A stretch of DNA of 64,000 bases from Eledone cirrhosa (GCA_964016885.1 OZ024743.1:200384001-200448000); one strand, 5' to 3'. Positions 17,797 through 56,943 are shown, counted from the first letter of the stretch. The notes: generated by a model from the letters alone, not told the origin. Numbers and translations: made by a program.

Positions 17797-18012
17797 GTGA
17801 AGGCGTGTGGCTGAGTGGTTAGAGAATTGGATTCGCAATCGTGAGGTTGTGAGTTCGATTCCAGAACCGGGCGATGCGTTATGTCCTTGAGTAAGACACT
17901 TTATTTCACGTTGCTCCTTCTACCTGGAGTTGCGACCGATAGATAGTATTAGCAATTGGAAAGACCAATGGAAACATTGTTTCCTCGGTCCGATTTGCCG
18001 AAAGTCGATCGT
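17797..18012 (+). mobile_element. tRNA-derived SINE (family 2) with CORE-like central domain
   Basis: A box TGGCTGAGTGG, B box GAGTTCGATTCC, then gtccttgagtaagacacttta. A second copy lies at 57321-57500. Confidence 0.8.
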
Positions 18013-18883: not shown

Positions 18884-19443
18884 AGAGAGAGAGAGAGACA
18901 ACATATATATAGACAATATATATATTAATATCTAAATAATGTGCTGCTGTTCATGCTCAAGATATTTCTAAAAAGAGGAAGTGAACCTAAGTGAAAATCG
19001 TTCCTTTTCCATTGTTGCTACGCAATACTTTATTTAGTCATTCATCCTGAGGATTTTTGGAAGTTTTCTCTGGATTTTCTTTATTTATTTTCATTGTTAT
19101 GGACTTTTTTGTGTACGAAGTGGGTTTTTTTATGTTTTCGTTATGTTTTTGTTTCTGCACTTTTTTTTTCGTCTGTCTTTTTTTTAAAACTAGAATTGCT
19201 TTGGTGTGGGGGGGGGGAATAGATTCTCGTCTAAATGTGTGTGTGTATAAAAGTACGTTTGTGTGTGTTTTTTATTGTACTTTTTGGTTGTTGTTGTTCT
19301 TTTTTTTCATCGGAAATGAATAAGAATAGGTTTTAAATTTTAATATAGGGTACAAATGGAAAATTCTTATCCGTGCAAAAAATAAATAAATAGAATAAGA
19401 TAATGATAATAATAATAATAGTAATAATAATAATAATAATAAT

Positions 19444-22400
19444 GCTATCTTTATTAACCACAAGGGTTTACATAAAGTAGACATTAAGCACAGTACAGGA
19501 CAATACAGGACGGTACAAATGGGCATTTTTGCGTGTAAAAAAAACAAAGGATGTAATAAAAAATAACAATGAAAAATTCCCCAATAGGGGAGAGACTTCC
19601 GAGGGACATTTGTGGAGAAAGCCCATTAAAAGGCCACAGTGACCCTGACCACCGGGGCAAGTGCCCTCTCCCAGTTTTCCACCTTTAATTTACAGACAGA
19701 TACTCAGAGTAGGCCCATTCACACGGGCCATACTTGCTTCTCTCACCCATCTTTCAACAAAATGCTGGGAAGAGAGCACTTCCCTCTCTACCCTGATTTT
19801 CCTTTTCAAATGAAATTTGAAAAAGTTAATCAGGGCATCACCGAAGAGGTAAGTGCTCGTCTTCAGCCCTTTCAAACGTGTCCACCATACTATCTCTTTC
19901 GCCATGGCCACCAGACAGATAAAAACTGCCTGCCCTTCTCGGCTAAAGGAGGAGGGCGGGGCAATCCTCACGATGGACTCAGCTGATAGCTGCATCCGTC
20001 CTACACGTTGCAGCAGGTGTTCGACATAAACCCACAAGTCAGCAATGCTCGGACACTGGACGAGTGCGTGCAGGACGGTTTCGTCGTCCTGAGCGTATCT
20101 TGGACATGCCCGGCTGAGGGCACCTTCATGCCTGTAGAGTTTATCCCGAACTGGCAAAGCACCCCGGTAGCACTGCCAGGCCAGGGATTTCTGGAAGTTG
20201 TCCATAGGCCCCGGCCCGAAAGTCCTTCCAAAGAGATTGGCTAGTTGATTTTCGTCGACGCCTAGAGTTTCTCCAAGTACGTCGTCGCTCTTCCCCTCCA
20301 CTAATCCTCTATAGAACTCCAAGGTGGAGATTCCACCGATCACATTGCCCGATTGGTCGAGGGCTGTGAGCGCCTGAAGACATTCCAGTCTCCAAGCGCT
20401 CCCTCTCGGTCTTCGCTTGACCCAGGACTGCAGCTCCGTCAAGGAGACGAGCTGGGGAACAACGTGTCTAGCAAACAGCGACCACACCTGATCACCGTCG
20501 AGGAAGAGGTGGAAATGTCGTAGCCTGAGCGCGTGTCTGCGCATCATCAGCCACGGCATTCCCAGCCCTCCACGTAGCGGGTGTTGACAGCAGATGGACC
20601 GTCTGACCATCGGAGCGCGTCCCTTCCACAAAAAGCGAAAGAGCAAACGCTCCAGCGCAGTCAGGCGGGGCTTAGGACAAGGTACGACGGTCAGGCAGTA
20701 GTAGATGACGGACGCGATGTACGCGTTAGCCACCTCCGCTCGATCTTTCAGGGATAGCTTCCTCTCGGCCCATTTCTGGGTGAGAGAAGCCACCCTGCTC
20801 GTCACCTCGTCCCAGTTTTTTTGTCCGTCAGGAGGTCCGGACCGAACCAGACCCCTAGCAATTTAACCGGTCCGTCCGTCCAGTGCCCGACGACGCTGTT
20901 GGACGGCATGGACCTCCCTCTCCAGGTGCCGAGCTGCAGGCCCACTGACTTTTCCTGGTTGATCATTGCTCCTGTCATCGCTTCGTATTCTCTTAGTATA
21001 GTGCCGATCTCCTCGATGTGTTTGGCGTTCGACACCACTACGGGGACATCGTCCGCATATGCTGATACGGATCTTCAGCGTCCTAATTCGCGCGGGACGG
21101 CCCTCAACGTCTCCAGTTTGTGCAGTAATGGCTCGAGAGTCAATAAGTACAAGAGGGACGAGAGGGGATATCCTTGGCGGACCGAGCGCATGATATTGAA
21201 TGGTTCTGAAAGGTGACCGTTCACTCTCACCACAGAGCAGATGTCGCTGTGCATGGCAGCGATCCAGCCTCTGAAGACGGGCCCAAAGCCAGCCGCCTTC
21301 ATGACTGACGCTAGGTAACGATGGTCGACCCTATCGAAAGCTTTCGACTGATAAAAATTGACCAAGGACACACACGTGCCAGGTTCCCTAGCTACCCTCT
21401 CTAAGATGTATCGCATGAGGTGGAGGTTGTCGTGGATGGCGCATGTCTGCGCCTCTCCCACCAGACCACCAACGACAAGCGCCAACCTCTTTGCTAGCAC
21501 CTTGACCAAAATTTTGAACTCTGTGTTTAGCAGAGTTATGGGCCTGAAATTATCTATTAACCCCCTTGTTCGGATCCTCTCTCAGCAGCACCACAGCTCC
21601 TCGGCTCACAGAGATTTGAGTTCTCTCGTTCTGTGGCCAGTTGCAGTAGACGTCCGCCAAGAGGCCTCCGGACAAGTCTGGCATCTGTACGTAAAGTTCA
21701 TAGGGCAGACCATCCAAACCAGGCTATTTACCCCTTGTGCAGCCAGTCATTGCCTCCCGTACTTCAGCGGCTGTTATCGGCTTTTCGCAACACTCCACCT
21801 CAGTGGCCGAGAGCCGCGGCAGCCCGTCGAGGTAGACAGTAAAGTCCATCCCTCGACACAGCGCACCGCTGCCCCCGAACAGCTGAGCGAAGTGTCGCTG
21901 AAAAGCTTCACACATTTGCCCGGGATCGAGTAGCATGCGCCCGTTGTGGTCCACCAAAGACCGGATCGTGGCTTTGTTGCCACGACGCGCCTCCGCCACT
22001 CGGGCCCATTGAACGGCTTTCGTCCCTTGGTGTCTGAGAGCACGCACCGTAGCTCTGACAAAGCCTTCGTGCTTTGCAATGAAGAATTGCACCCTCCTAC
22101 CCTATCCGCTAATCCCACAAAGTTCCAGCGTGCATCTAAGATCCCGTTCCAGTCGCCCATTAACACTAAAGAGCGGGACGTTCCAAGAAAGGTCTCCAGA
22201 CGCCGGAAGAAATCAGGCCGCCCTGCTCCTGTCGGGGCATAGACGGCCACTAGCCTGAAAGCTTGCCCGTCTCCGCTGGTTAATTTTAGTTTCAGTTGTG
22301 GTGGTGGTGGCGTCAGTGGTGTTCAGTGTGGAAGAGTTCATTTTGGCTGAATTCGTTTCGATATCACGAGATAATTTATTTTTTTCTTTTGTTTCTGTTG

Positions 22401-22836
22401 TCGCTGTTGTGGTGGTTGTGGTGGGGGTGGCTTCACACACCTGCAGTCATTGGTAATGGCGCAAAATGAATGTCTGCCTGAGACAAATTTAAAATATTGC
22501 TACTGCTTATATTTTTAGTGTTGGCAAACGTAGTAATATTTACAATGGTGGTGTCGGTGAGAGGTGTTAGTTTGTGAGGAAGGCTCTCAGCTACTGGGTT
22601 CAGCTGTGAGTCGGCCATTATTTTTCAAATAAATTTTTTTTTTTGATTGATAATTCTAAAAGTTTAAATTTTGGGCTCAAGGCCACAATCTTTTTGCGTG
22701 TCCTTTTCAGAAAACAATGTATGTGCACTTATATACAGTTAACAATAACATTTTTTCATAAATGGCAATTTTAAACAACTGAAAATAACAAACCTTTGCG
22801 GAGCTCACGATAATACGATTTACTATGTAGGTCGCC
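19444..22836 (-). mobile_element. Tx1-like LINE, same subfamily as 32849-38700, with large internal deletions
   Basis: 5' end ggcgacctacatagtaaatcg matches 32849. ORF1 start is fused to the APE region. RT SAYADD and zf-RVT remnants are present. (AAT)n lies on both sides. Confidence 0.92.
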
Positions 22837-22865
<29 letters not shown>

Positions 22866-22867
<2 letters not shown>

Positions 22868-23093
22868 CTTTCTTTATTAACCACAAGGGTTTACATAAAG
22901 TAGACATTAAGGACAGTACAGGACAATACAGGACGGTACAAATGGGCATTTCTGCGTGTAAAAAAAAACAAAAAAAAAACAGAGGATGTAACAAAAAATA
23001 ACAATGAAAAATAGTGGAGAGACTTCCGAGGGACATTTGTGGAGAAAGCCCATTAAAAGGCCACAGTGACCCTGACCACCAGGGCAAGTGACC
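22866..23093 (-). mobile_element. Tx1-like 3'UTR-only copy
   Basis: Near-identical to 19444-19665; flanked by (AAT)n. Confidence 0.9.
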
Positions 23094-23104
23094 TTATTAA
23101 TAAT

Positions 23105-23142
<38 letters not shown>

Positions 23143-25064: not shown

Positions 25065-25235
25065 TTCTTCTTCTTCTTCTTCTTCTTCTTCTTCTTCTTC
25101 TTCTTCTTCTTCTTCTTCTTCTTCTTCTTCTTCTTCTTCTTCTTCTTCTTCTTCTTCTTCTTCTTCATCTTTACCATCATCATCTTCATCATTATCATCA
25201 TCATAATGTTTCTTCTTCTTCTTATTATTCTTCTT
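25065..25235. repeat. (TTC)n/(ATC)n microsatellite
   Basis: Directly visible. Confidence 0.95.
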
Positions 25236-25285
25236 ACCAGTAATGCACTGGGTAATTGCTGGCCTTGTGCCTAAAGTAGAAACAG

Positions 25286-25322
<37 letters not shown>

Positions 25323-25441
25323 AATCCCGCCGATGTTGACTTTTATCCTTACGGGGTCGATAAAATAGAGTACCAGTAATGCACCGGGTAATTGCTGGCC
25401 TTGTGCCTAACGTAGAAACAATTATTATTATTATTATTATT
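25235..25441 (+). mobile_element. Two 5'-truncated family-1 SINEs, each with an (ATT)n tail
   Basis: taccagtaatgcac.gggtaattgctggccttgtgccta..gtagaaaca occurs twice. Confidence 0.85.
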
Positions 25442-28400
25442 GGTCTAATCGGACGCATTTTGCTCGATCCCAGTAAGTCGCTTTATTTGCCTGTTAAAAT
25501 TATTTGTTGTTAAATATTTCTTGTTGTGTAAGGGATATAAGCCATTAGACTTTGCCCTGTGAAGGGGAAAGTATAATATTTGGGCCTTTTGGCCCAAATA
25601 TTTGAACTTTTTTTTACATGTTAAAAAATTTACGGAGGAAAAAAAAACATGGCTGAGCCACACCCCCCAGCGATATGTCTGCTGTCGAACCACAACGACG
25701 TAGAAGTTGAGAGGAGCGCTACAGCGAAATTAACACAAATTGATAACACAAACACCATCACAAACAAGGTAAACAAAGACACCAATGATACCAATAAGAA
25801 CTCTAATTTTGAAAAAAATTACAGTAACAGCGACAACGAAAATACAGATAGACAATCCCGGAACACATTCGCCTTCAGAATGGGACGGTCATTCACATTA
25901 TGACCGAAGGCAAAAGACCGCAGTGTTTTGTTTGTGGGGAAAAAACCCATTTGCGAGCCTTCTGCCCTCAACTGCTGAAAGAGGCAAGGGGTCGAAAGGC
26001 TCCACTGCTGCCGTCGCCGGGGCGAGGACCATAACCAACACCAGCACCGGCAAAACCACCAACAACAACACCAATAGAAAGACCACCACCAACATTGACC
26101 ACCCAGGGGGGAAACGAGGAAAGCTGTCAAATTCCGCCCCCCCCCCCCAAAAAAAAATACACACACCAATAAAACCATAAACATACATACAGACACACTT
26201 ACAGACACAGACCCCCTCATCTACCAGTAGTGAAAATGAGGGAAAACCAAAGTCCCCCAAAATACAAAAAAGGAAACACAAAAAGAAAAAAAAAACTCAA
26301 CAAAGCACAAAATCACCCCCAATAAAAAACGCAGACACCACCCACGCAAACATCTCTACAATAACACCAACATCAACACCACCATCACCATCACCAGAAT
26401 CCTCCAAACGCAAACAACCTAAACAGACGAAAGAACAAATATACACACAAACATCTGAAACCACAGACACCGCACTCACAACAAACACAGACACAACCGA
26501 AACAACACCACCAAAACCATCACCACCACAGCAACGCAAACAAATAAAATCACACCAACAAAATATACAAAACTTCGTGCTCGTCAGGAGGGCCAACAAG
26601 GAACTGATGTCCCTCGTACCACGAAGTGAAAATATACAAAAAGAGGGGGAAATTTTTAAATCGAGCACATTTCGCGTGCCGGAAGATTTGGTTCTGGTGC
26701 GAATGTAGATCGATTTATACAAAGAAATACGAGACAGCTTTCCTCGGGACGTGGGAACCCCGAACGTAAAACCCACTTCAAGACTTTTAAAGGGGTTCCC
26801 AAAAGAAGCCCCACCAACTATGGAGGTCGAACAACCCGACCTTCACAAGAGCCCGGAAGGTAAGTAAACCTTTCCTCTCTCTCTCTTTTTAACCTGCCAA
26901 CATGACCATATTAAGAGTAGGATGTTTAAATGTTCGAGGCCTGGGATCGTCCTGGAAGCAGGGTCACCTGCTCAATGACCTCAGGTCTCTAGAAATGGAT
27001 GTAATTGCCGTCAGCGAGACGAGGATTTCCGACACGCGAGCACTAGCCCGCATTTGTGACGACTATCAGTCTTTGCATCTGTTAGCCGGCCGGGAATGGG
27101 AGGTGGGGTGGCAGTGTTGTTTAGGAAAGGCCTGGATCTCGAGGTAAGGTCGATCTTCCGGGACCCGGACGGAAAGTTGGTGGTCCTGGACGTGAACAAT
27201 AACGAAGGTGGTGCCTTTAGACTGGTAACCGTCTATGCTCCTACTGGGGCAGGACGGCCGGACTTCTTTAGACGCCTGGAAGCCTTTATGGGCACGTCTC
27301 GCCCTTTCCTGTAAGCGGGGGACTGGAACGGCATTTTAGACGCACCCTGGGACTGTGTGGGAGTATCCGATAGGAGCGGGGAGTGCAAGAGCCTCAAGAA
27401 CCTGATCAGCCAGTTCCAACTGTCTGACAGGTACCGACTAGATTTCCCTAATGCGCCAGTGTGGACCCGGGCTAACCGCATACGGTCATCTAGATCGTAT
27501 ATAGACAGGATATTCATTAGGAAAATAGACAGAAATAGTGTAAGCTGTCCACGTTTTGAAACGGTCGCCTCTTCAGATCACAAGTTTGTGATCTGTATGG
27601 TCGACCTAGATAAGACGTGGAAGCTAAACGTGTCATTTCCGGCACGTAAGACTTACAGGGACCAGGTCAACAATTTAGTTAAGAAAAAGTTGACAGGGGG
27701 AGTCGTCAACAATAGATGGTGGGGGCTCTCAAAAGAGAGATTAGAGTAATGTCGATAGAGTTTAGCAAAGAAGTAGCGTTAGAGAAAAATAGAAAGGAGG
27801 GGGAGTTGGTAGATAAGTTAGACGAGGCTATTGGTAGTGACATTGCAACTGACGTGCTAGCGGCGAGAATGGCATTAGACCATTTCTTCAACGCGAAACA
27901 CGAAGGTTGCATTGTCAGAGCTAAGGCGCGTGCTCTGAGAAACGAGGGAACCAAAGCTGTCGATGGGCCCGCGTGGCAGAGGCGCAGCGTGGTAATAAAA
28001 CCACGATTCGGTCTTTGATGGACCGAGACTGGCACGAGCTGAGCGATTCCAAGAGGATGTGTGAAGCCTTTCGCCAACATTTTGCTCGGTTGTTCAGGGG
28101 AAGTGGCGGGTCAGAGATGACGGCTGACGCTGGGCGCTGCGAAAGGCCAATTACTTCAGCCAAGATTCAGGATGCCCTTGTCGGCTGCATGAGGCGCATG
28201 TCACCGGTTTGGATGGTCTGCCCTACGAGCTTTACGTAAATATGCCAGACTTGTTCTCCAATCTCCTCGAAGCCCTCTACTGCAACTGGCAGCAAAACGG
28301 GAGTATTCCCAGTTCTGTGAGCCGGGGCGTATGACGCTGATAAAGAAAGACGAGAACAAGAGGGACACATTAGACAATTTCAGGCCCATAACTCTGCTCA

Positions 28401-30522
28401 ACACAGAGTTTAAGATTTAGGCCAGGGTGTTAGCGAAGAGGTTAGCGCTTGTCGTCGGGGATTTGGTTTGGGAGGCGCAAACTTGCGCAATCCCAACCAG
28501 GTCCATACACGACAACCTCCACCTAATGCGATACATCATAGAGAGGGTAGGGTGTAAACCTGGCTTCGGTGGGGCTCTGATCAATTTAGATCAATTAAAA
28601 GCATTCGATAGGGTCGACCATCGGTACCTGGAGGCTGTCTTCAAGGCGGCTGGCTTCGGCCCCGTCTTCAGAAGCTGGATCGCTGCAATGCACAGCGGCA
28701 CCTGCTCGATGGTCAAAATTAATGGCCACCTCTCGCAACCGTTTCAGGTCTGCCGATCGGTTCGTCAAGGGTGTCCCCTCTCCTCCCTTCTGTACGTATT
28801 GACTCTCGAGCGTTTACTGCGGAAGCTGGAGCTGTTGCAGGGCATCCCGCTCGAACCGGGACGCGGAAAAGCTGTGTCGGCTTATGCGGACGACATCAAG
28901 GACTTCACCGTGATGGTGTCGGACACCTCAGAAATTGAGGTGGTCGGCAACTTATTGGAAGAATATGAAAGGTTGACGGGAGCAAAACTTAACCCGGAAA
29001 AGTCGGTGGGCTTGCAACTCGGCACCTGGAGAGGCAAGTCCATGCCGTCCAACAGCGTCGTTAAGCGCTGGACGGACGGACCGGTAAAGTTGCTAGGGGT
29101 TTGGTTCGAGCCAGACCTCCAGGTGGATAAGAATTGGGACGAGGTGACGGGCAGGGTAGCCAGTCTCACCCAGAAATGGGCTGGCATGAAGCTATCACTG
29201 AAAGGTCGGGCGAAGGTGGCGAACGCGTACATCGCGTCCGTCATCTACTACCGTCTGACCGTCGTCCCTTATCCCCCGTTCGCGCCTCGCCATCTTGGAG
29301 CGGCTCCTCTTCAAATTCTTGTGGAGGGGTCAGGTTCCGCTGGTGAGGCGGTCCATCTGCTGCCAGCACCCTCTACGCGGAAGGCTGGGCATGCCGTGGC
29401 TAATGATGCGCAGGCACGCGCTGAGGCTCCAGCATCTCCAGATATTCTGCCTAAACGGTGGACAGGTGTGGTCGCCGTTTGTCAGACGGGCCTTTCCGCA
29501 GCTCGTTTCTTTGACTGAGCTGCAGTCCAGGGTCAAGAAGAGACCGAGACTGGGTGACTGGCATCTGGAATGTTGCTTGGCACTCACTGCCCTCTACCAC
29601 GCGGGCAATGCGGTCAGTGGAACTTCCACTCTCGAGTTCTTTCGAGGGTTAGTGGTGGGCAAGTGCGACGACGCACTCGGAGAAGCTCTGGGAGTCAACT
29701 AAGTCGAACTAACCAGTATGTACTGGAGGACTTTCGAGCCGGGGACGATGGATAATTTCCAAAAATCCCTCGCTTGGCAGTGCTACTGGGGGGCACTTCC
29801 GGTTCGAGATAAACTCCTCAGGCATTGACGGACCTGCCCTAGATGCGCGCAGAGCGACGAAACCGTTCTGTACGCACTCGTCCAGTGTCCGTGCATTACT
29901 GACTTGTGCAGTTATGTTGAACAGCTGTTGTCGCGTGTAGAACGAATCCGGCTATCGGCCGAGTCCATAGTGAAGATCGACCCGCCGCCTTCTTTTGGCC
30001 AGGAAGGGCAGGAAATTTTCCTCTGTCTGGTGGCAGTAGCGAAAGAGGTTGTATGGTGGACGAGGTTGAAAGGACTGAAAACAGACACTTTTCTCTTCGG
30101 CCAATGCTACATCAACTTTTTCAAGTTTCACTTGGAAAGGAAGGTGAGGGTGGAGAGAGAAGTGCTGCCCCCCAGTACATTTTCTGAAAGGTGGGTGAAT
30201 GTGGCGAGAATGGCCCGTGTGAGTGGGCCTACTCTGGTCATGCGTCTGTAGATAGGTAAATTTGAGGAGGAGAGGGGGTGCCCTTCCAGGGTGCTCTCGA
30301 AGCGTCGGGGCGTTCAGGATTGATGGGGTACCTGAGAGAACCCTGGATGGCCATCCCCCCTATTGGGGAATTTTTTCTTGTTGTAATTTTCTTGTTACAT
30401 TGTTATTGTGATTCATATTGTTTACTCGATTTTTCTGTAAAATCCCACTGTCCCAGTCTTTTGTATTGTCCCCTATATGTCGGCCCTTGTGGCCAATAAA
30501 TGAAATCATTATTATTATTATT
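25442..30522 (+). mobile_element. Tx1-like LINE, 5'-complete, decayed
   Basis: ORF1 remnant with a zinc knuckle (CFVCGEKTHLRAFC-like) and a Thr/Pro-rich tail. ORF2 from 26902 (MTILRVGCLNVRGL): APE, RT (VRQGCPLS, SAYADD), zf-RVT, ending 30251. 3' cccttgtggccaataaatgaaat(CATT/ATT)n. Confidence 0.93.
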
Positions 30523-30524
30523 AT

Positions 30525-32115
30525 TGAAGGACTATGAAAGGTTGACAGGAGCCAAACTTAACCCGGAGAAGTCGGTGGGCTTGCAGCTCGAAACCTGGAG
30601 AGGCAGGCCCATGCCGTCCAACAGCGGCGTGGGGCGCTGGACGGACGGACCGGTAGAGTTGCTCGGGGTTTGCTTCGGACCAGACCTCCAGGTTGAAAAG
30701 AATTGGGACGAGGTAACGAGCAGGGTAGCCAGTCACACCCCAAAATGGGCTGGGAGGAAGCTATCACTGAAAGGTCGCGCGGAGATGGCGAATGCGTACA
30801 TCGCGTCCGTCATCTACTGACCGTCGTGCCTTGCCCCCGACCGCGCCTCGTCAATTTGGAACGGTTCCTTTTCAAATTCTTGTGGAGAGGACAAGTTCCG
30901 TTGGTGAGGTGGTTCATCTGCTGCCAGCACCCTCTACGCGGAGGGCTGGGCATGCCGTGGTTAATGATGCGCAGACATGCGTTGAGGCTGCGACATCTCC
31001 AGATATTCTGCCACAACGGTGAACAGGTGTGGTCGCCGTTTATCAGACGGGCCTTTCCGCAGCTCATTTCTTTGACTGAGCTGCAGTCCTGGGTCAAGAA
31101 GAGACCGAGACTGGGTGACTGGCACCTGGAATGTTGCCAGGCACTCACTGCTCCCTACCAAGCGGGCAACAAGATCAGTGGAACTTCCACTCTCGAGTTC
31201 TATAGAGGATTAATGGTGGGCAAGTGCGATGACGCACTCGGAGAAGCTTTGGGCCTCGACGAAGTCGAACTGACCAGACTGTATCGGGGGACTTTCGAGC
31301 CGGGGACGATGTACAATTTCCAGAAATCCCTCGCTTGGCAGTGCTACTGTGGAGCACTGCTGGTTCGGGATAAACTCTACAGGCACGGAAGTGCTGTCAG
31401 ACGGATGCCCAAGATGCGCACAGAACGACGAAACCGTTCTGCACGCACTTGTCCAATGTCCGTGCATTACTGACTTGTGGAGTTATGCCGAACAGCTACT
31501 GTCGCGTGTGGAACGAATCCGGCTATCGGTCGAGTCCATAGTGAAGATCGACCCGCCGCCTCCCTTAGGTCAGGAAGAGCAGGAAATGTTCCTTTGTCTG
31601 GTGGTAGTTGCGAAAGAGGTTATATGGTGGACCAGGTTAAAAGGACTGAAGACAGACACTTTTCTCTTCGGCCAATCCCTCATCAACTTCTTCAAGTTTC
31701 ACCTGGAAAGGAAGGTGAGGGTGGAGAGAGAAGTGCTGTCCCCCAGTACATTTGCTAAAAGGTGGGTGAATGTGGCGAGAATGACTCGTGTGAATGGGCC
31801 TACTCTGACCATGCGCCTATAGGCTAGCTAACTTGAGGAGAGGGGTGCTCTTCCTGGGTGCCCTAGAAGCGCAGGGTGATTCAGGATTGGTGGGGTACCC
31901 GAGTCACCCCAGGGTCGTCTAACCCCTATCGGTTAATTTATTTTGTTATATTTATACATAGTTTATTTTATATTCTTATATCTTCATTGTTAAATTAGTC
32001 TTGCCATTGTGCACTTTTACTCGACATTATTGTAAATCCCCACTGACCCTGTCTTTGTATTGTCCCCTACATGTCGGCCCTTGTGGCTAATAAATGAAAT
32101 CATTATTATTATAAT
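30525..32115 (+). mobile_element. 5'-truncated Tx1-like LINE
   Basis: Begins right after the previous tail at YERLTGAKLNPEKS; CPRCAQNDETVLHALVQC; (ATT)n tail. Confidence 0.92.
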
Positions 32116-32119
32116 TATT

Positions 32120-32413
32120 TCCAGCATAGTTACGTTCCTTTACGATATGAGTTCAAATCCCGCCGAGGTTAACTTTGCCTTTCATCCTTACGGGGTCGAT
32201 AAAATAAAGTACCAGTAATGTACTGCATAATTGCTGGCCTTGTACCTAAAATAGAAACAATTATTATTATTATTATTATGAGTTCAAATACCGCCGAGGT
32301 TAACTTTGCCTTTCATCCTTACGGTGTCGATAAAATAAAGTACCAGTAATGTACTGGATATTTGCTGGCCTTGTGCCTAAAGTAGAAACAATTATTATTA
32401 TTATTATTATTAT
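32120..32413 (+). mobile_element. Two 5'-truncated family-1 SINEs in tandem
   Basis: B box GAGTTCAAAT(C/A)CC, body and (ATT)n tail, present twice. Confidence 0.88.
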
Positions 32414-32848
32414 TCAAATTTCACTTGAAGAGGAAAATCAGGGCGGAGAGGCAAGTGTTGCCTTCTAGCAAGTTTGTTGAAAGGTGGGTGAATGTACTCT
32501 GAATATACGTCTGTAGTTTGAGAGATGGAAAAATAGAGAGAGTGCGCTTTCCCTGGTGGTCAGGGTGGCCGTGGTCTTTTGTGTGGTTTTCGTCACGAGT
32601 AACCCTCGGAGGTTTCCCCCCTTATTGGGAAATTTTTCATTGTTTCAATTTTCATTTTTATTGTTTATATATATATATGTTTCTATGTCCTTTTTTTTCT
32701 TTTCTTATATAAATAATAAAAATATTTACACGCACAAAACCCACATCGTACCGTCCTGTACCGTCCTGTGCCGTCTGTAATGCTTTTCTTGATGGCAGCC
32801 CTTGTGGCCAATAAAGAAATCATTATTATTATTAGTAGTAGTATTATT
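32413..32848 (+). mobile_element. Short Tx1-like 3' fragment (another subfamily)
   Basis: FKFHLKRKIRAERQVLPSSKFVERWVNV, a 3'UTR, then cccttgtggccaataaagaaatcattatt. Confidence 0.85.
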
Positions 32849-33305
32849 GGCGACCTACGTAGTAAATCGTATCATCGTGAGCTCCGCAAATGTTTGTTAT
32901 TTTCAGTTGTTTAAAACTGCCATTTATGGAAAATTTTTATTGCTAACTGTATATAAGTGCACATACATTGTTATCTGAAAAGGACACTCAAAAAGATTGG
33001 GTCCTTGAGCCCAAAATTTAAAATTTTATAATTATCAAACAAAAATTTTTCTTTGAAAAAATCATGGACGACTCAGAGTCACTCCTTCCTCACAAACTAA
33101 CACCTCACACCGACACCACCATTGTAAATATTGCTACGTTTGCCAACACTAAAAATATAAGCAGTAGCAATATTTTAAATTTGTTTCAGGCACACATTCA
33201 TTTTCCGCCATTACCAATGACTGCAGGTGTTAAAGCCGCCACCCCCACCACAACCACAACGACAACAGAAACAAAAGAAAAAATAAATTAACTCGTGATA
33301 TCGAA

Positions 33306-34999
33306 ATGAATTCACCCAAAATGAACTCTTCCACACCGAACACCACTGACGCCACCACCACCACAACTGAAACTAAAACTAACAATAACAAAAATAACGA
33401 TAACAACAACAGCAACGATGAAATTAAGAAAACCACCCTGTCTTTTGCCAGAGTAGCAAAAAAGTGCGAAGCATTCCAGGTAACTCAGGAGGAATTAGAA
33501 GAAGCCAAAATAATGGTAAAGAAAGATGGGTACAGGGTCAGCCTCACCCCCACCCCAAACACACACACACTCACACACCTAATAAAATGGAGCATCGGCG
33601 CCTATGCACCGTGTCTTATCGGACGATTAACATAAAATTGCGCCGAGTGGAACGGGCATCCGAGTCCCAAATCCAAAAAGCTTTCGGAGATGTGTGGGCA
33701 AAAAAAACCCACAACATACGTGGGCAGAAATATGGAACCGTGGACGTGTTCTTTGAAACACCACAGGAGGCCAGAGAACACTCCATGGCTCAATTAAGAA
33801 GTGACGACTTCACACTCATCCCAAGCTATTGTGGCCAGAGACTCGTGAAGATCAGGGTGACCCACATTCCACCGGCCATCGAAATTCCCTGGCTAATGGC
33901 TGCCGTCCTCGCCGGCATCAAGGCCAAGACAAAGATAATCGAAATAGCGAAAGAAAAGCAGGAGAAATGGTCCGGATCTGGGATGGAGCTCCTGATCCAA
34001 GCGGACCAAAAAAGCATTGAGGAGATTCCAGAGGTAATAGACCTCACTGACGGCAGCCACCTCACCGTAATCGTCGAGGGCAGAAGGCCTAGGTGTGTCG
34101 TTTGTGGTGAAGGAACCCACCTAAGGGCTTTCTGCCCTCAGGCTAAAAGGTTAAGGCCACCTCTCTTACCCACCCCAGTGACTCAACCATCAACATCACC
34201 AGCAGCAGAAATGGCAGCAACAACAGAAGCAACTGTAACAGCAACAACCCCAGCAACAGTAGCAAAACCAACACCACGACCACCCAACGCGCCAGAACTA
34301 GCACCAGCGCCTACACCATCCACCACGCCACAACCAAAACCAACGCCTGTGGAGGATTTTCCACTCCCCGACCTATCGCAACTGGAGACAGATTGTGACG
34401 ACGAGGAGTGGGAAACGGTATCAGGAAAAAAGAAAAAAAGAATAAGAAACCCCAAAAGAAAAAAACCTCTTCCTTCCCCCTCCAAAAACAAAATACAGAG
34501 GGAAACAAATAAACTATCAAACAAAAAAGTTAGGACAGATATGCCACCATCCACACTAGCATCACCACCCCGATCACCACAAACACCAACACCATCACCA
34601 TCATTAACCCCCAACACGACCATCACCAACACCACAAAAGTCACCAAAAAGCGAAACAGAAACAAACCCACAACAAACGCAAACAAAACAAAACAACCAA
34701 AACGATACACACTACACAGCATTAAATTTGAACAACCAATTATTACACTACATCCAACACAACACCAGCATCACAGAAAAAGACTACACAACAACCCAAA
34801 AGTTCACACCATCTCCACACATACAAATCACTTGCATCACACAGAAAACGTACACGACACTAAAACAAAAATTCCCCAAAACATCGGAGACTTCGGACAA
34901 GCACTCTCCAGGAGGATTTATAAGGACATCCTTCCTGAGGAGGCCACAAGCAGTGAAAAGGATGGACAAACCATCCTTCCTCTACGAGAAGTAAGGTAA
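33306..34999 (+). pseudogene. Tx1 ORF1 (gag-like): RRM-like region, CCHC knuckle, Pro/Thr-rich region, basic NLS-like stretch
   Basis: 511-aa frame with YGTVDVFF, CVVCGEGTHLRAFC and WETVSGKKKKR. The probable start near 33306 is in another frame (frameshift). Confidence 0.85.
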
Positions 35000-35033
35000 G
35001 TGGTCTTTCCCATCTTTTCCACGCCATTTCAAC

Positions 35034-38000
35034 ATGACCTCACTCAGAATAGGCAGCATAAATGCGCGTGGCTTGGGGTCGTCATGGAAGCAGGGCCACC
35101 TGCTCAATGACCTCAGGTCACTAAACATAGATGTAGTGGCCATCAGCGAGGCCAGAATTTCCGAAGCACGGGCCTTCGCACCAATCTTCGTCGGCTACGA
35201 TGTGTACGCATCTCCCAGCCGCCCGGGATCGGGGGGAGGAGTTGCTGTGCTTTTTCAGAGAGGTTTGGATCTCGCATTACGGGCCATCTTCCTGGACCCA
35301 GAGGTTAAGTTGGTGGTGCTGGACGTGACCAGCGGAGACGGGTAAGCTTTCAGGCTAGTGGCCGTCTATGCCCCGACAGGAGCAGGGCGGCCTGCTTTCT
35401 TCCGGCGTCTGGACACCTTTCTTGGAACGTCCCGCGCTTTAGTGTTAGTGGGCGACTGGAACGGGATCTTAGATGCACGCTGGGACTGTGTGGCATTAGC
35501 GGATAGGGGAGGAGGGTGCAAGAGCCTCACCAACCTGCTCAGGCGTTTTGAACTGTCTGACAGGTACCGATTGGATTTCCCGAATGTGCCAATGTGGACT
35601 TGGACAAATCGCCTTAGGTCATCCAGATCATATCTAGATAGAGTATTTTGTAGGGAAATAGATAGGTCTAGCATAGGCTGTCCACAATTCAAGATAGTCA
35701 GCTACACGGACCACAAATTCGTGATCTGTGTGCTTGTCTTAGATAGGCTTCATAGACGAGGACCCGGCTACTGGAAGCTAAACGCGTCCTTACCAGCACG
35801 CAAGGCCTACAGAGACCGGATTAGCGGACTAGTTAAGCGGGCGTTAACGGGGGCCATTGTCAACGACAAGTGGTGGTTTGCTCTGAAAAGAGCGATTAGA
35901 ATAGAGTTCATTAGGTTTAGTAAGGCTTTAGCAATAGAGAAAAATAGAGCAGAGGGAGAACTAGTTAGAAAATTAGACGAGGGGCTTAGCAAAGGGATCG
36001 CGACCAACGTACTTGCGGCGAAATTGGTCCTTGACCAATTCTTCAATGCAAAGCACGAAGGCTGCGTTGTCAGAGCTAGGGTGCGTACTCTCATACACGA
36101 GGGAACGAAAGCCGTTCAATGGGCCCGAGGGCGGAGTCGCGTCGTGGCAACAAAGCCACGATCCGGTCTTTGGTGGACCACGACGGGCGCATGCTACTCG
36201 ATCCCGGGAAAATGTGTGAAGCTTTTCAGCGACACTTCGCACAGCAGTTCGGGGGCAGTGGCGGGCCGGATTGAGGGATGGACGGACTGCCGCGGTTCTC
36301 GGCCACTGAGGCGGAGTGTTGAGAGAAGCCGATAACAGCCGCTGAAGTACGGGAGGCAATGACTGGCTGCACAAGGGGTAAATCGCCTGGTTTGGATGAT
36401 CTGCCCTATGAACTTTACGTACAGATGCCAGACTTGTTCGGAGGCCTCTTGGCGGACGTCTACTGCAACTGGCCACAGAACGGGAGATTACCCAGCTCTG
36501 TGAGACGAGGAGCTGTGGCGCTGCTGAGAAAGGATCCGAACAAGGGGGATAACATAGATAATTTTAGGCCCATAACTCTGCTAAACACAGAGTTCAAGAT
36601 TTTGGCCAAGGTGCTAGCAAAGAGGTTGGCGCTTGTCGTTGGTGGTCTGGTGGGAGAGGCGCAGACATGCGCCATTCCCGACAGATCCATCCACGACAAC
36701 CTCCACATAATGCGGTACATCGTAGAGAGGGTAGCTAGGGAACCTGGCACGGGTGGGTCCTTGATCAATTTAGATCAGTCGAAAGCTTTCGATAGGGTCG
36801 ACCATCGTTACCTAGCGGCAGTCCTGAGTGAGGCTGGCTTTGGGCCCGTCTTCAGAGGCTGGATCGCTGCCATGCACAGCGACATCTGCTCTGTGGTGAG
36901 AGTGAACGGTCACCTTTCGGAACCGTTCAACATCATGCGCTCGGTCCGCCAAGGATGTCCTCTCGCGTCCCTCTTGTACGTATTGACTCTCGAGCCATTA
37001 CTGCACAAACTGGAGGCGTTGAGGGGGGTCCCGCGCGAACTAGGATGCGGAAGTTCCGTGTCAGCATATGCGGACGATGTCACCGTAGTGGTGTCGAACG
37101 CCAGACACATCGAGGCGATCGGCACTACACTAAGAGAATACAAGGCGGTGACAGGAGCAATGATCAACCAGGATAGGTCAGTGGACCTGCAGCTCGGCAC
37201 CTGGAGAGGGAGGTCCATGCCGTCCAACAGCGTCGTCGGGCGCTGGACGGACGGACCGTTTAAATTGCTAAGGGTCTGGTTCCATCCGGACCTCCAGACG
37301 GACAAAAACTGGGACGAGGTGACGAGCAGGGTGGCTTCTCTCACCCAGAAATGGGCGGAGAGGAAACTATCCTTGAAAGGTAGAGTGGAGGAGGCTAACG
37401 CGAAGATCGCGTCCGTCATCTACTACCGCCTGACCGTCGTAACTTGTCCTAAGCCCCGCCTGACTGCGCTGGAGCGTTTGCTCTTTCGCTTTTTATGGAA
37501 GGGACGCGCTCCGATGGTCAGACGGTCCATCTGCTGTCAACACCCGCTACGTGGAGGGCTGGGAATGCCGTGGCTGATGACGCGCAGACACGCGCTCAGG
37601 CTACGACATCTCCACCTCGTCCTCGATGGTGCTCAGGTGTGGTCGCTGTTTGCTAGACGCGTCTTTCTCCAGCTCGTCTCCTTGACGGAGCTGCAGTCCT
37701 GGGTCAAGCGAAGACCGAGAGGAGCGCTTGGAGACTGGAATGTCTTCAGGCGCTCCCAGCCCTCGACCAATCGGGCAATGTGATCGGTAGAAACTCCACT
37801 TCGGCATTCTATAGAGGATTAGTGAAGGGGAAGAGCGACGACGTACTTGGGGAAACTCTAGGCGTCGACGAAAATCAACTAGCCAATCTCTTCGGAAGAA
37901 CTTTCGGGCCGGGCCTATGGACAACTTCCAGAAATCCCTGGCCTGGCAGTGCTACCGAGGAGCTTTGCCAGTTCGGGATAAACTCTACAGGCATGGAGGT

Positions 38001-38432
38001 GCCGTCAATCGAGCATGTCCGAGATACGCGCAAGGCGACGAAAACGTCCTGCACGCACTTGTCCAGTGTCCGAGCATTACTGACTTGTGGGTTTATGTCG
38101 AACACTTGCTGTTACGTGTAGGACGGATCCAGCTATCAGCTGAGTCCATCGTGAGGATAGCCCCGCCCTCCTCCTTTAGCCGGGAAGGGCAGGCAGTTTT
38201 TATCTGTCTGGTGGCCATGGCGAAAGTGATAGTATGGTGGACACGTTTGAAAGGGCTGAAGACGAGCACTTACCTATTCGGTGATGCCCTGATTATCTTT
38301 TTCAAATTTCATTTGAAAAGGAAAATCAGGGTAGAGAGGGAAGTGCTCTCTTCCCAGCATTTTGTTGAAAGATGGGTGAGAGAAGCAAGTATGGCCCGAG
38401 TAAATGGGCCTACTCTGAGTATGTGTCTGTAA
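35034..38432 (+). pseudogene. Tx1 ORF2: APE endonuclease, reverse transcriptase, zf-RVT
   Basis: MTSLRIGSINARGL, GDWNG, YTDH, NFRPITLLN, LDQSKAFDRV, VRQGCPL, SAYADD. In-frame stop at ~35343; frameshifts near 36130, 36280 and 37720-37920. Confidence 0.93.
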
Positions 38433-38699
38433 ATTAAAGGTGGAAAACTGGGAGAGGGCACTTGCCCTGGTGGTCAGGGTCACTGTGGCTTTTTAATGGG
38501 CTTTCTCCACGAATGTCCCTCGGAAGTCTCCCCCCTATTTGGGAATTTTTTCATTGTTCTATTATTACATCCTCTGTTTCTTGTTTTTTTTACACGCAGA
38601 AATGCCCTTTTGTACCGTCTTGTATTGTCCTGTACTGTCCTTAATGTCTACTTTGTGTAAACCCTTGTGGTTAATAAAGAAAGCATTATTATTATTATT

Positions 38700-38762
38700 A
38701 TAGTAATGCACTGGGTAATTGCTGGCCTTGTGCCAAAAAGTAGAAATAATAATTATTATTAT
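38700..38762 (+). mobile_element. Family-1 SINE 3' end
   Basis: agtaatgcactgggtaattgctggccttgtgccaaaaagtagaaat followed by (ATT)n. Confidence 0.8.
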
Positions 38763-38764
38763 TG

Positions 38765-40825
38765 TTCTTTGTGTCTCAGTCATTGATGTTGTTTAACTGG
38801 AAAGTTTGTTGAAATGAATATCAAGCTACTACCTGCAGCCTCAGATATTTAGGACGTATCGGAGGGTTCTTGCTGTTCCCAGCAAGCATGCCTTTTGAAG
38901 TGTTCCCAAAGGCGGGGCTGGACTAATATTCTTTAACCATCCTTGGAAACTCTTTGAGATAGTACCGAGTGCGCCTATGACAATCGGGACGACCTTGATT
39001 TCATGGCAGTTCCAAATCATTTTTACCTCCCACTTTAAGTCCTGGTATTGGTTAATTTTCTCCCTCTCCTTCTCTTGCACTCTCGTGTCGAATGGGCAGG
39101 CCACATCCCCAATCAGGCACGATCTTTTTTCCTTGTCCAAAATCTCCAGGTCAGCTCTATTGTGTTCCAGTTTCTTGTCCGTCTGTATCCTAAAATCCCA
39201 CAGCACCATCACCTGATCGTTTTCTATCATCGAATCTGGCTTATGCTCATACCACTTCTCAGAATGTGGTAAATTGTTTACTTTGCATAGGTGCCAGTGG
39301 ATCACCCTGCCCATTACATCATGTCTCCAGCCTTTATAGTGAGTCTGGGCTAGGTGTTTACACTCGGATACAATGTGAGCCACAATCTCGTCTCTCTCAC
39401 TCCACAGATCCTACACAGTGGGCTAGCCTCCTCCTTGTAAATATGGTGTTTCAACCACCTCGTTTTGAGGGCCTGCTCTTGCGCAGCCATTAGCATTACT
39501 TCTGTAGCCTTTTTAAGGTCTCCTCTTTTCAACCAGTTCCATGTCTGTGGATCTCTAAATTCAGTTTTCTCAAAGAAGGTACTATGAAGGGATTTTTCAT
39601 AAAGGTTGCTCTCCCTCCTTGTTATTTCCTCCTTGGACATCCCCTGGTCTATTATCCTCTCCTTCAGTACAATTATGAGCATTCGCTCCCTACTGTCAGT
39701 CACGTATTTGTGTAGGTTGTTTTCTCCATCTGAACACAGTCCTCTATGCTGATAAGACCTCTTCCACCTTCAGATCTCCTTAAGTAGAGTCTATCGACAT
39801 CACTCCTCTTGTGGAATATGTTGTAGATAGTCAATAGCTTCCTAGTCTTCCTATCCATTTATTTTTGTTCAGCAACATTCCATTTTAGAATTCCCACACT
39901 GTACCTAATAATAGACACAGCTCGGGAATTTACTGCACTTATGGCATTCCTACTGTTCAGATGTGATTTTAATACCCTCCTTACTCTCCGAATGTACTCA
40001 GATCTTATCAATTCCTTCATTTTTTTTGTTCTTGATGTCATCTGCCTTCAGTGTCAATGTCCTTTATCATCTCACCTGTTGATACCTGGATTCCGTTGCT
40101 TCTGCTCAATTTACCCCTCTTCATCACTAGGACTCCACACTTACTAATACCAAATTCCATACATATATCATTGCTGAAAATACAGACAGTGTCAACAAGC
40201 ATATCCAACTCCTTCTCACTCTTCCCGAAGAGCTTCAGATCGTCCATGAAGAGTAGGTGATTGATGGTAAGCTCTCCTTTTCCCAACTTGTATCCTACTC
40301 TGACTGTTCGCAGTATAATGGTCAGGGGTATCAGGGCAAGGACAAACAACAGAGGGGACAAACTATCTCCCTGGAAGATACCTCTCTTGATCTTCATGCC
40401 TCCCAAGGATTCTCCACCCGATGTTAACTCTGTTTTCCAGGACTTTATACTTTTGCTCAACAACTGTCTGATGTTATCTGCCACCTTGAAGATCTCTAGG
40501 CTTTTGGTGATCCAAGAATGAGGTACCATGTCGAATGCCTTTTTTTAGTCTATCCATCCCATGGCAAGACCAGTGTGTTTCCTCTTGCAATTCCTCATTA
40601 CCATCTTATCAATAAGTAACTAGTCCTTTGTAACACGGGACTTCTTTCGTCATCCTTTCTGTTCGTCCGGTAAAAAAGTTTTTATGTGGAGGTGATGGTA
40701 GATTTCCTCAGACAAAATGCTTGTTAACAGTTTCCACATTACGGACAGACATGTGATAGGTCTATAGTTGGTAACATCATTACCCTTGATTCGGTCTTTC
40801 ATTACCAGAACTGTGGTATCTTTTG
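38765..40825 (-). mobile_element. R4/Dong-like LINE (RT + CCHC + restriction-like endonuclease), 5'-truncated, decayed
   Basis: NYRPITC, AFDMVPHSWI, GIFQGDSLSPLLF, HLLFMDDLKLF, CRICG...HIVSEC, RHD, WDFRIQTD..HNRAD, DVACPFD...EK..KYQDL; (AAT)n tail. Confidence 0.9.
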
Positions 40826-40979
40826 TCTTCTAGTGGCTCCTTTATTTACTGTATGTGAGATAATATAACACAAAAACCTGAAGTAAAGTAGCAAAAGATG
40901 TTATGATATACGAAGTAGTAGAATGGAGCCAGTTTTAAAATATTAAGATATGACCGGTTTCTCTCTCCCTCCCTCTCTA

Positions 40980-43830: not shown

Positions 43831-43961
43831 TTTCAAATCTAGGAATACATAATCCATCACGTCCCTCTTTTCACAAAGGAATAGGGTGTGATATGAAGTA
43901 GAATCGATTGCCATTTCTACACAGCTCTTCTATTGGCTCCTTTATGTACTGTATGTGAGAT

Positions 43962-44144
43962 AATTGTTTCTACTTTTGGCACAAGGCCAGCAATTACCCA
44001 GTGCATTACTGGTACTTTATTTTATCGACCCCGTAAGGATGAAAGGCAAAGTTAACCTCGGCGGGATTTGAACTCAGAATGGCAAGGGCCGTAACTATGC
44101 GTCAAAGCATGGCGTCCGACCCTCTACCGATACTGCCAATCCAC
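43962..44144 (-). mobile_element. Full-length family-1 tRNA-derived SINE
   Basis: A box TGGCAGTATCGG, B box GAGTTCAAATCC, body, 3' ggccttgtgccaaaagtagaaacaatt. Confidence 0.9.
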
Positions 44145-45031
44145 ATAACACAGAAGCATGAAGTAAAGTAGCAAAATATATATGATATACGATATACGAA
44201 GTAGTAGAATGGAGGCAGTTTTAAAATATTAAGATATGACCGGTTTCTATGATGTGATATAAAAGAACAAAAACAAACATTGAAAAGAATCAGAGAAGTT
44301 GGTTTGCACAGTTTGGATATGTTACTATGAGTCAGTATGGATGTTTGGGGTAATCTTATCGTCAGCATATGATGTCTATTCTTTGAGACGGAGACATCTG
44401 TGACAGTGGGGGGAGGGTACTATCCTGTTATTGATGGAACCTTCCATAGTTTAAAGATAAAACTGTTCCGGTGAAGGCCTCGTTCGAAGAACCCTTGTGT
44501 TGAGACCATTGGTGAAATTATTTAGATTCTTAACTGACATATTTCTGCTGTCATTGGAATATTATCTGGATCTTCTTTAGATAATATCAACAGCAGAGTC
44601 TATGGCCTTTCTTCAAATAAAGACTTTTTCGAAAGAACAGTTGCTTTCAGGAAACAATCACATGTATAAATGCACATATGCAAGCGTGTATGTGGTTGCA
44701 TATGTATCCAGGAAGCATGAGTGATACAATATTTGACACCTACTCTGGTTAGCACCATAAGACCTCTTTTCGGTCCTTTCTACATGCTAATATCTATTGC
44801 CTCCCCGGTTTCACGAACAAAATCTATTGTCTCCTTTTACCAATTCCCCCATACTAGTTTCGTTTCTGGTCCCTTTGTCCCGTTGAAGAATATTTTTCTT
44901 ACAAAACAGAGTGAGCCGCCGAGGATTGGGGCACTTATTTGTCGTACCCAGGGAAACAATTGTGACGTATTGTATTTTGTCTGTAATTAAATAATATGTA
45001 TACCTAAAGACACACACACACATACAAACGC

Positions 45032-49076: not shown

Positions 49077-49077
<1 letters not shown>
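47380..49077 (+). mobile_element. Penelope-like element 3' end (GIY-YIG with CxxC...C tail) with a ~700-bp inverted duplication
   Basis: + strand ~48217-48570 (not in the ORF track): CLTDRVIYRCTV...HYIGATSGPFKNRFRTHLHSF...TSLANY...WEIVGRAAPYD*KRKCELCLMELYHII...INSRAETTIRC. Arms ~47523-48220 and ~48382-49077. Confidence 0.88.
48983..49020 (+). ncRNA. Minimal hammerhead variant (U3-A8 core); mirror copy at 47582-47619 on the minus strand
   Basis: TTGAGAA-gcggattcgggc-GAAA-CGTACG-TA-ggt, followed by AATAAA; palindromic stem III. Confidence 0.6.
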
Positions 49078-49238: not shown

Positions 49239-49620
49239 ATTATTATACAGGCAGTATCGGTAGAGAGTCGAACGCCATGCTTTGAAGCATAGAGTTACGT
49301 CCCTTTATGATCTGAGTTCAAATCCCGCCGAGGTTAACTTTTCCTTTCATCCTTACGGGGTCGATAAAATAAAGTACCAGTAATGTACTGGGTAATTGCT
49401 GGCCTTGTGCCTAAAATAGAAACAATTATTATACAGGCACTATCGGTAGAGGGTCGGACATGCTTTCCAGCATAGTTACGTCCCTTTTTCGATCTGAGTT
49501 CAAATCCCGCCGAGGTTAACTTTGCCTTTCGTCCATACGGGGGTCGATAAAATAAAGTAGCAGTAATGTACTGGGTTATTGCTGGCCTTGTGCCGAAAGT
49601 AGAAACAATTATTATACAGG
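49239..49620 (+). mobile_element. Head-to-tail dimer of family-1 SINE
   Basis: Two near-full copies; attattatacagg at 49239, 49425 and 49608. Confidence 0.9.
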
Positions 49621-50770: not shown

Positions 50771-51267
<497 letters not shown>

Positions 51268-56880: not shown

Positions 56881-56943
56881 CTGGCCGTGTTGGTGGTCAT
56901 ATATATATATATATATTATAATAATAATAATAATAATAATAAT

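What the first reader, a model, noticed from the sequence alone, without database searches (positions are those of the whole stretch)
25235..38762. 13.5-kb co-oriented retroelement train linked by (ATT)n tails
Seen in order: SINE, SINE, Tx1 (5'-complete), Tx1 (truncated), SINE, SINE, Tx1 fragment, Tx1 (full length), SINE end. All nine units are on the + strand, each begins immediately after the previous (ATT)n tail, and there is no host DNA between them. Both 5'-complete LINEs start GG after ATT. Inference: strand-specific targeting of (ATT)n, where each insertion creates a new target, gives self-propagating arrays.
Basis: partly seen in the sequence, partly recalled or inferred. Interest (0 to 1): 0.75.

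Follow-up and report, generated by a model that had tools for sequence, protein, structure and literature searches.

The report
ATT-targeting retrotransposons stack head to tail
Nine jumping-gene copies sit head to tail on ATT repeats here, and across the genome 93% of one family's full-length starts directly follow ATT while none follows the reversed repeat, likely because these elements insert into ATT and likely leave a copy of that target on both sides so that chains grow; similar repeat-targeting elements are already known from fish and crocodilians.

Summary
Confirmed. 25,235-38,763 holds nine + strand units (5 SINE pieces, 4 L1/Tx1-type LINEs of families A, A2, D, B) joined only by 16-36-bp ATT-type linkers. 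Genome-wide, 1,570 of 1,687 exact family-B 5' ends follow ATTATTATT; 2,586 starts follow ATT, 0 follow AAT; background 0.07%. Corrections: the 'tails' look mostly target-derived (11-18-bp duplications start at the element's last base); the SINE needs only ATTAT; unit 3 has a ~760-bp deletion; unit 1 follows (TTC)n; the chain continues into an antisense Dong-like LINE. Additions: sister families sit in (TATC)n; SINE and LINEs share a 3' hairpin; truncations recur at internal ATT microhomology. No intact ORF2 among 60 sampled loci; units cannot be age-ordered. Microsatellite-targeting Tx1 (Kibi, Koshi, crocodilian) and TAA-targeting Dong are published; ten literature searches found no ATT/TATC Tx1. 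Tx1 membership itself was not tested phylogenetically. This scan already reported the same system at eight or more other loci of this genome. Verdict: real, a new member of a known kind, interest 0.42.

The parts
25065..25234 (.). (TTC)n/(CAT)n compound microsatellite, 5' flank of the train (not ATT)
25235..25284 (+). unit 1: 3' end of the SINE (5'-truncated)
25285..25320 (+). linker GTTGTT(ATT)10
25321..25420 (+). unit 2: 5'-truncated SINE
25421..25441 (+). linker (ATT)7
25442..30507 (+). unit 3: L1/Tx1-type LINE family A, 5'-complete, ~760-bp deletion in ORF1, ORF2 broken
   Evidence: RVT_1; comparison with 20 other A copies
30508..30525 (+). linker (ATT)6; its last ATTATT matches an internal ATTATT of subfamily A2 at the truncation point
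30526..32101 (+). unit 4: 5'-truncated LINE, subfamily A2 (84.5% identical to unit 3)
32102..32121 (+). imperfect ATT linker
32122..32259 (+). unit 5: 5'-truncated SINE
32260..32277 (+). linker (ATT)6
32278..32390 (+). unit 6: 5'-truncated SINE
32391..32414 (+). linker (ATT)8
32415..32821 (+). unit 7: 3' fragment of LINE family D
32822..32848 (+). linker (ATT)4AGTAGTAGTATTATT
32849..38684 (+). unit 8: full-length LINE family B (5,836 bp; ORF1 with CCHC knuckle, ORF2 APE endonuclease-RT-zf-RVT, broken by stops/frameshifts)
38685..38701 (+). linker (ATT)5AT
38702..38747 (+). unit 9: 3' end of the SINE
38748..38763 (.). AAT/ATT tract shared with the Dong-like element
38764..40824 (-). 5'-truncated Dong/R4-like LINE (RT plus C-terminal restriction-like endonuclease motifs; family name recalled), tail to tail with the train

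Best explanation
The train is a stack of nine retroelement copies joined only by ATT repeats, likely built by independent insertions of L1/Tx1-type LINEs (and a SINE that likely borrows their machinery) whose endonuclease is inferred to nick the AAT strand of ATT repeats, each insertion likely leaving target sequence on both sides so that the next one lands beside it in the same orientation. Shown: strand- and phase-fixed junctions genome-wide; duplications of 11-18 bp that begin at the element's last base at imperfect sites; clustering of full-length copies at one element's spacing; neighbours in a train belong to different subfamilies; Dong-like LINEs use the same tracts antisense; sister families sit in (TATC)n. 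Inferred: target-primed reverse transcription from a nick just before an ATT unit, RNA 3' end (after a short hairpin and AAUAAA) pairing with the nicked AAT strand, 5' joining helped by ATT microhomology, and SINE mobilisation in trans by these LINEs at relaxed ATTAT sites.
For: 1,570 of 1,687 exact B 5' 21-mers follow ATTATTATT; ATTATTATT+start 2,586, AATAATAAT+start 0. Last 12 nt upstream is ATT repeat in 28 of 29 B and 29 of 29 A top-scoring copies, AAT in 0; family C: TATC in 24 of 29, ATT in 0 (loci). Background 0.067%. Among 58 copies picked by their 3' end, 21 of 22 5'-complete ones and 14 of 36 incomplete ones follow an ATT tract, 6 more an ATT-like degenerate tract, none an AAT tract (read by eye). 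Duplications of 11-18 bp start at the element end in L067, L084, L239, L251, L263 and in 15 of 17 SINE duplications (17 of 33 SINEs; swapped-flank control 46 of 611). Of the first 100 listed B starts, 18 of 99 gaps are under 20 kb (2.4 expected), 15 of 18 same strand, six gaps are 5.93-5.98 kb. Beside 331 ATT tracts: LINE sense 232, antisense 10; SINE sense 112, antisense 4; Dong-like antisense 72, sense 0. Unit 4's truncation point is an internal ATTATT of its subfamily and an unrelated copy (L300) is cut at the same base; L290 repeats unit 7's point. 3' hairpin shared by LINE families and SINE with double changes at 3 of 4 pairs. ATT-type copies fall on one side of a 100/100 branch apart from TATC-type copies.
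Against: 16 of 36 incomplete copies have no ATT at the 5' junction (5 are joined inside another LINE copy, which looks like later deletion; the rest are unexplained). No fixed duplication length for full-length copies: unit 8's imperfect 5' linker is not repeated at its 3' side, and L285, L151, L158 allow only 5-13 bp. No empty-versus-filled allele was compared for a LINE, no enzyme was assayed, no intact ORF2 was found (longest open stretch 842 aa in 40 A/B loci; 523 aa in 20 C loci). Top-hit samples are not random. The hairpin has only 4 pairs and was chosen from these same sequences. 23 of 47 random (ATT)3+ tracts have no recognised element beside them, so tracts also arise otherwise.
Confidence: 0.82

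Rival explanations
1. Element-encoded tails seed the targets: each LINE RNA carries a long (AUU)n tail that is copied at insertion, and later elements insert into those tails.
For: All 58 copies picked by their 3' end are followed by ATT or a short ATT-like start; 84+23 of 313 tracts have an A/B/D 3' end on their left. In pure tracts tail and target cannot be told apart.
Against: Wherever a duplication is visible it starts at the element's last base, and mismatches (ACTAT, ATTGTT) are in both copies; no LINE case of 'tail, then duplication' was seen by eye; SINEs usually have 0-2 ATT units (31 of 33).
Confidence: 0.15
2. Specificity comes mainly from RNA-DNA pairing at both ends (an AUU 3' end primes, and AUU read through from the upstream tract anneals at the 5' end), with a loose endonuclease.
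For: 5'-complete copies follow ATT far more often than incomplete ones (21 of 22 vs 14 of 36, Fisher p 1.6e-5); 22 of 58 copies are 5'-complete; truncations recur at internal ATT microhomology; the endonuclease hairpin loop differs only slightly between ATT and TATC families; the SINE, at ATTAT sites, is much looser.
Against: L285 has only TTATT before the start; later deletions can explain part of the complete/incomplete gap; published work makes the endonuclease the main determinant (PMC4494074 passage; PMC1950540 passages). Not exclusive of the best explanation.
Confidence: 0.3
3. The train is a product of tandem duplication, unequal crossing-over or co-mobilisation of a read-through transcript.
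For: Neighbouring SINE units are 94% identical; tandem SINE runs with one repeated spacer exist (L185, L190).
Against: Units 3 and 4 are 84.5% identical and sit in different subfamilies; the junctions 3|4 and 6|7 are spanned by no other held locus, and genome-wide the same truncation points recur only with other upstream flanks.
Confidence: 0.05
4. Passive accumulation: random insertion, with survival only in gene-poor microsatellite-rich DNA.
For: The region is repeat-dense; passive accumulation is invoked for Drosophila Waldo (PMC3812793 passage).
Against: Base-exact phase and strand (2,586 vs 0) and family-specific repeat choice (ATT vs TATC) cannot come from selection on location.
Confidence: 0.01

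Closest known systems
Kibi (TC)n, Koshi (TTC)n and crocodilian (TTCC)n/(TTTC)n Tx1 families (PMC4494074 passages and section 15; PMC3812793 passages)
   Same: APE-type LINE with two ORFs inserting specifically into a microsatellite; several sister families with different repeat units.
   Different: Targets here are (ATT)n and (TATC)n; host is likely an octopod (inferred, not shown); thousands of 5'-complete copies; relation to Kibi/Koshi by phylogeny not tested.
Dong (R4 clade; name and endonuclease type recalled), TAA-specific, including DongBg of a snail (PMC3812793 passage)
   Same: Same microsatellite; Dong-like elements occupy the same tracts here.
   Different: Different endonuclease class and opposite orientation relative to the repeat; the train's nine units are not Dong.
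SINEU / Tx1-Mar pair in crocodilians (PMC4494074 section 16)
   Same: A SINE inferred to ride on Tx1 because it shares target and age.
   Different: There the link is target plus snRNA heads; here it is a shared 3' hairpin plus ATT-start duplications, and the SINE target is looser than the LINE's.
Telomeric TRAS/SART, Zepp, GilM/GilT, Tx1-1_ACar and HeT-A/TART arrays (PMC10088271 passages); Alu/L1 insertion into earlier poly(A) tails (recalled)
   Same: Orientation-fixed, head-to-tail retroelement arrays on a simple repeat that insertion regenerates.
   Different: Here the arrays are interstitial, dispersed over the whole genome and mixed from several families.

Membership tests
L1 clade (L1/Tx1) LINE | ORF2 with N-terminal APE endonuclease, RT and C-terminal zf-RVT | tested here: met
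   Exo_endo_phos, RVT_1, zf-RVT on unit 8 pieces; the 40%-identical intact relative P0004 hits human L1 ORF2p at E 5e-73, R2 at 6e-27
L1 clade (L1/Tx1) LINE | Separate ORF1 with CCHC zinc knuckle | tested here: met
   CxxCxxxxHxxxxC in ORF1 of B, E and F copies; no Pfam family passes
Tx1 clade | RT phylogeny groups with Tx1L/Keno/Kibi/Koshi rather than L1 proper | not testable with these tools
   No named Tx1 sequence came back; the atlas gave no answer. The Tx1 label rests on architecture, target specificity and recall.
Tx1 clade | Target-sequence preference (over 20% of flanks, the criterion in PMC4494074) | tested here: met
   93%; 57 of 58 A/B copies
Kibi/Koshi lineage | (TC)n or (TTC)n target | tested here: not met
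   Targets are (ATT)n and (TATC)n; only occasional (TTC)n 5' flanks at compound tracts (L225, L285)
Dong (R4 clade) | Single ORF with C-terminal restriction-like endonuclease | tested here: not met
   Not met by the nine train units (APE type); motifs of this kind, recognised from recall, are in the neighbour at 38764-40824
Stringent SINE-LINE pair | Shared 3' end with a conserved stem-loop | tested here: inconclusive
   15 natural ends: 80% of cells paired vs 67.8% shuffled, covariation 0.367 vs 0.166 (1 of 500 shuffles), but only 4 pairs and the structure was picked from these sequences
Stringent SINE-LINE pair | Same insertion signature and age | tested here: met
   ATT-starting duplications of 10-18 bp in both; copies of both 94-96% identical to nearest held relatives
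Stringent SINE-LINE pair | Trans-mobilisation shown by assay | not testable with these tools
MetaSINE / other SINE superfamily | Central conserved domain | not tested
   Resemblance is recalled only; PMC4824008 passages list no octopus MetaSINE; no Rfam or tRNA hit in the window

The most novel reading that the evidence does not exclude
A radiation of Tx1-like LINEs that has switched microsatellite target (TATC versus ATT) with little change in the endonuclease loop, aims largely by pairing its RNA ends with the repeat, and drives one of the genome's commonest SINEs through a shared CUUGU hairpin: a natural, thousands-of-copies test bed for whether nicking or RNA-DNA pairing decides where a LINE lands, and an undescribed 3'-end-sharing Tx1-SINE pair in an animal.
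Probability: 0.3. Interest if true: 0.65.

Novelty: new member of a known kind. Interest (0 to 1): 0.42.

Why it matters
It shows how a large invertebrate genome packs retroelements into polarised, interstitial chains on one microsatellite, shared by two unrelated LINE classes and a SINE. Sister families with different repeat targets, many full-length copies and visible duplications make the question of endonuclease versus RNA pairing in target choice testable. For annotation it means that (ATT)n 'tails' here mark the target, not the element. The principle (microsatellite-specific Tx1, arrays on a regenerated target) is already in print, so the gain is a new target, host and partner rather than a new mechanism.

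Tried and rejected
Age ordering within the train: no gradient; units of 100 bp or more are 94-96% identical to nearest held copies (A2 89.5%, few copies held), terminal branches 0.028-0.039. Search for an intact ORF2: none in 40 A/B loci or 20 C loci. Naming the clade: homologue searches returned almost only unnamed proteins; the atlas gave no answer; a frameshifted endonuclease piece found nothing useful in the PDB. Rfam and tRNA scans of the window were blank. Expression: no RNA holder listed; no reads were laid. Tandem duplication, co-mobilisation and passive accumulation were considered and rejected (see rivals). One of 40 random control stretches did not exist and was dropped; 9 of 105 tree segments were dropped for low coverage and one copy (L134) is in the tree twice. 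Literature: 10 searches found no ATT- or TATC-specific Tx1; Repbase, Kojima and Fujiwara 2004 and supplements were not seen and may hold such families.

Full report
Observation. Reading the sequence, a self-comparison and an exact cut confirm nine + strand units from 25,235 to 38,747: five SINE pieces and four LINE pieces (families I call A, A2, D, B), separated only by 16-36-bp ATT-type linkers. Unit 8 is full length (5,836 bp) with APE endonuclease, RT and zf-RVT pieces. Unit 3 is 5'-complete but lacks ~760 bp of ORF1 compared with other A copies. Unit 1 follows a (TTC)n/(CAT)n tract. The last tract abuts a 5'-truncated LINE on the - strand (38,764-40,824) with RT and C-terminal restriction-like endonuclease motifs, which I recognise from recall as Dong/R4.

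Targeting is real and strand-specific. Genome-wide, the exact 21-nt start of family B occurs 1,687 times, 1,570 of them (93.1%) directly after ATTATTATT. A shorter start occurs 2,586 times after ATTATTATT and 0 times after AATAATAAT. Among top-scoring copies (30 loci each, of 2,053, 1,598 and 796 candidates; the window's own copy left out), the last 12 nt upstream are an ATT repeat in 28 of 29 B and 29 of 29 A copies, AAT in none; a sister family C (window 9,305-13,709, - strand) follows (TATC)n in 24 of 29 and ATT in none. Background in 39 random 10-kb stretches is 173 of 259,740 positions. Beside 331 ATT tracts in element-anchored loci the LINEs are sense 232 times and antisense 10, the SINE 112 and 4, Dong-like elements 0 and 72.

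Copies chosen without regard to the 5' end. Of 58 A and B copies found by their 3' end (extended in 38, 63; read by eye from 42, 43, 67), all are followed by ATT or a short ATT-like start. 22 are 5'-complete, and 21 of these follow an ATT tract. Of 36 incomplete copies 14 follow an ATT tract, 6 a degenerate one, 16 none; 5 of the 16 are joined inside another LINE copy, which looks like later deletion (internal deletions are common), and the rest are unexplained. None follows (AAT)n.

The tail is mostly target. At imperfect sites a duplication of 11-18 bp begins at the element's last base (L067, L084, L239, L251, L263). In random DNA 28 of 33 SINE ends are followed by ATTAT (background 0.26%) but only 2 of 33 by three or more ATT units; 17 of 33 show a 10-18-bp duplication (control 46 of 611), 15 of 17 starting at the last base. 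So a new landing site is most simply made by splitting and partly duplicating the old one. Against a simple fixed stagger: unit 8's imperfect 5' linker is not repeated at its 3' side, and L285, L151 and L158 allow only 5-13 bp.

5' joining. Unit 4 is cut at a place where its subfamily carries an internal ATTATT (8 internal matches), and an unrelated copy on another contig is cut at the same base after an ATT tract; unit 7's cut also recurs once with another flank. Complete copies follow ATT more often than incomplete ones (Fisher p 1.6e-5).

Trains. Of the first 100 of 2,586 listed B starts (contig C1), 18 of 99 gaps are under 20 kb against 2.4 expected, 15 of the 18 on one strand, six at 5.93-5.98 kb, one element length; at longer gaps 48 of 81 share a strand. 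Units 3 and 4 are 84.5% identical and in different subfamilies, and junctions 3|4 and 6|7 are spanned by no other held locus, so the LINE units are independent insertions. Age ordering fails: units are of one age class. No intact ORF2 was found in 40 A/B or 20 C loci. In random DNA 24 of 47 (ATT)3+ tracts touch a recognised element.

Families and partner. A tree of 96 natural ORF2 3' segments (105 found, 9 dropped; midpoint root, bootstrap not fully settled) puts all ATT-type copies on one side of a 100/100 branch apart from the TATC-type copies. The predicted endonuclease hairpin loop differs at two or three residues between A/B and the one TATC subfamily read; this loop affects target choice in L1 (PMC1950540, passages). 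LINE and SINE ends share a short hairpin with a mostly CUUGU loop before an A-rich stretch; on 15 natural ends 80% of cells pair, 3 of 4 pairs change on both sides, covariation 0.367 against 0.166 in shuffles, with the caveat that the stem is short and was chosen from these sequences.

What is known. Kibi (TC)n, Koshi (TTC)n and crocodilian (TTCC)n/(TTTC)n Tx1 families, and SINEU mobilised by Tx1-Mar (PMC4494074: passages, sections 15 and 16). Dong on TAA, including a snail element (PMC3812793: passages). Head-to-tail and telomeric arrays (PMC10088271: passages). L1-Tx1 and Dong-R4 families are listed as recently active in Octopus vulgaris, with no target analysis in the passages read (PMC13282606); PMC9115989 (passages) has no Tx1 mention; PMC4824008, PMC3747384 and PMC4758252 (passages) describe SINE-LINE 3'-end sharing but no such pair. 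Ten searches found no ATT- or TATC-specific Tx1; Repbase, the 2004 Kibi/Koshi paper and supplements were not seen. L1-clade architecture is met; Tx1 membership by phylogeny could not be tested. The scan has reported this system at eight or more other loci of this genome; none near this window.

Verdict. A real and well-supported case of microsatellite-specific LINE insertion that builds polarised chains; new target, host and probable SINE partner within a known kind. Interest 0.42.

Noticed in passing
window 19,423-23,140 (- strand): Second ATT train: a B 3' fragment followed by a 5'-complete B copy with large internal deletions, (ATT)n at all three joints.
   Followed up: partly
window 9,305-13,709 (- strand): Sister LINE family C starting GG after (TATC)n and ending in (TATC)n; such families also form head-to-tail trains (L092-L120, L200-L219).
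   Followed up: yes
window 49,239-49,620: Two SINEs in tandem with the same ATTATTATACAG before, between and after them: a duplication-regenerated target in miniature.
   Followed up: partly
window 43,960-44,150 and 40,826-40,962: A SINE inside a repeat whose paralogue 3 kb away looks like the empty site; the SINE ends at ATTAT with no added tail.
   Followed up: partly
window 56,920-57,501: Dong-like 3' fragment with (ATT)n on both sides, next to a different SINE-like repeat that also occurs at 17,835-18,011.
   Followed up: no
window 25,065-25,234; L130, L225, L229, L285: (TTC)n directly upstream of ATT-family insertions, at compound (TTC)n(ATT)n tracts; (TTC)n is the published Koshi target.
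   Followed up: no
L185 7,071-8,091 (- strand) and L190: Runs of up to six tandem SINEs of alternating variants separated by one 12-bp spacer.
   Followed up: no
L146 ~7,446-10,000; L138 ~7,272-10,000; L227: Further 5'-complete families (E, F) starting GA after ATT, with open ORF1; one E head is joined to a B-like ORF2 and 3' end, suggesting exchange of 5' modules.
   Followed up: partly
L165, L170, L190, L195: Another common repeat ending ...CACAATAATTTC followed by (ATT)n; not classified.
   Followed up: no
window 47,525-49,077; 50,771-51,267; 14,603-14,949; 15,159-15,419: Long near-perfect inverted repeats or palindromes (94-96% identity), possibly MITE-like or AT-rich fold-backs.
   Followed up: no
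L121-L160, L220-L288: Unusually high share of 5'-complete copies (22 of 58) and frequent internal deletions in them.
   Followed up: partly
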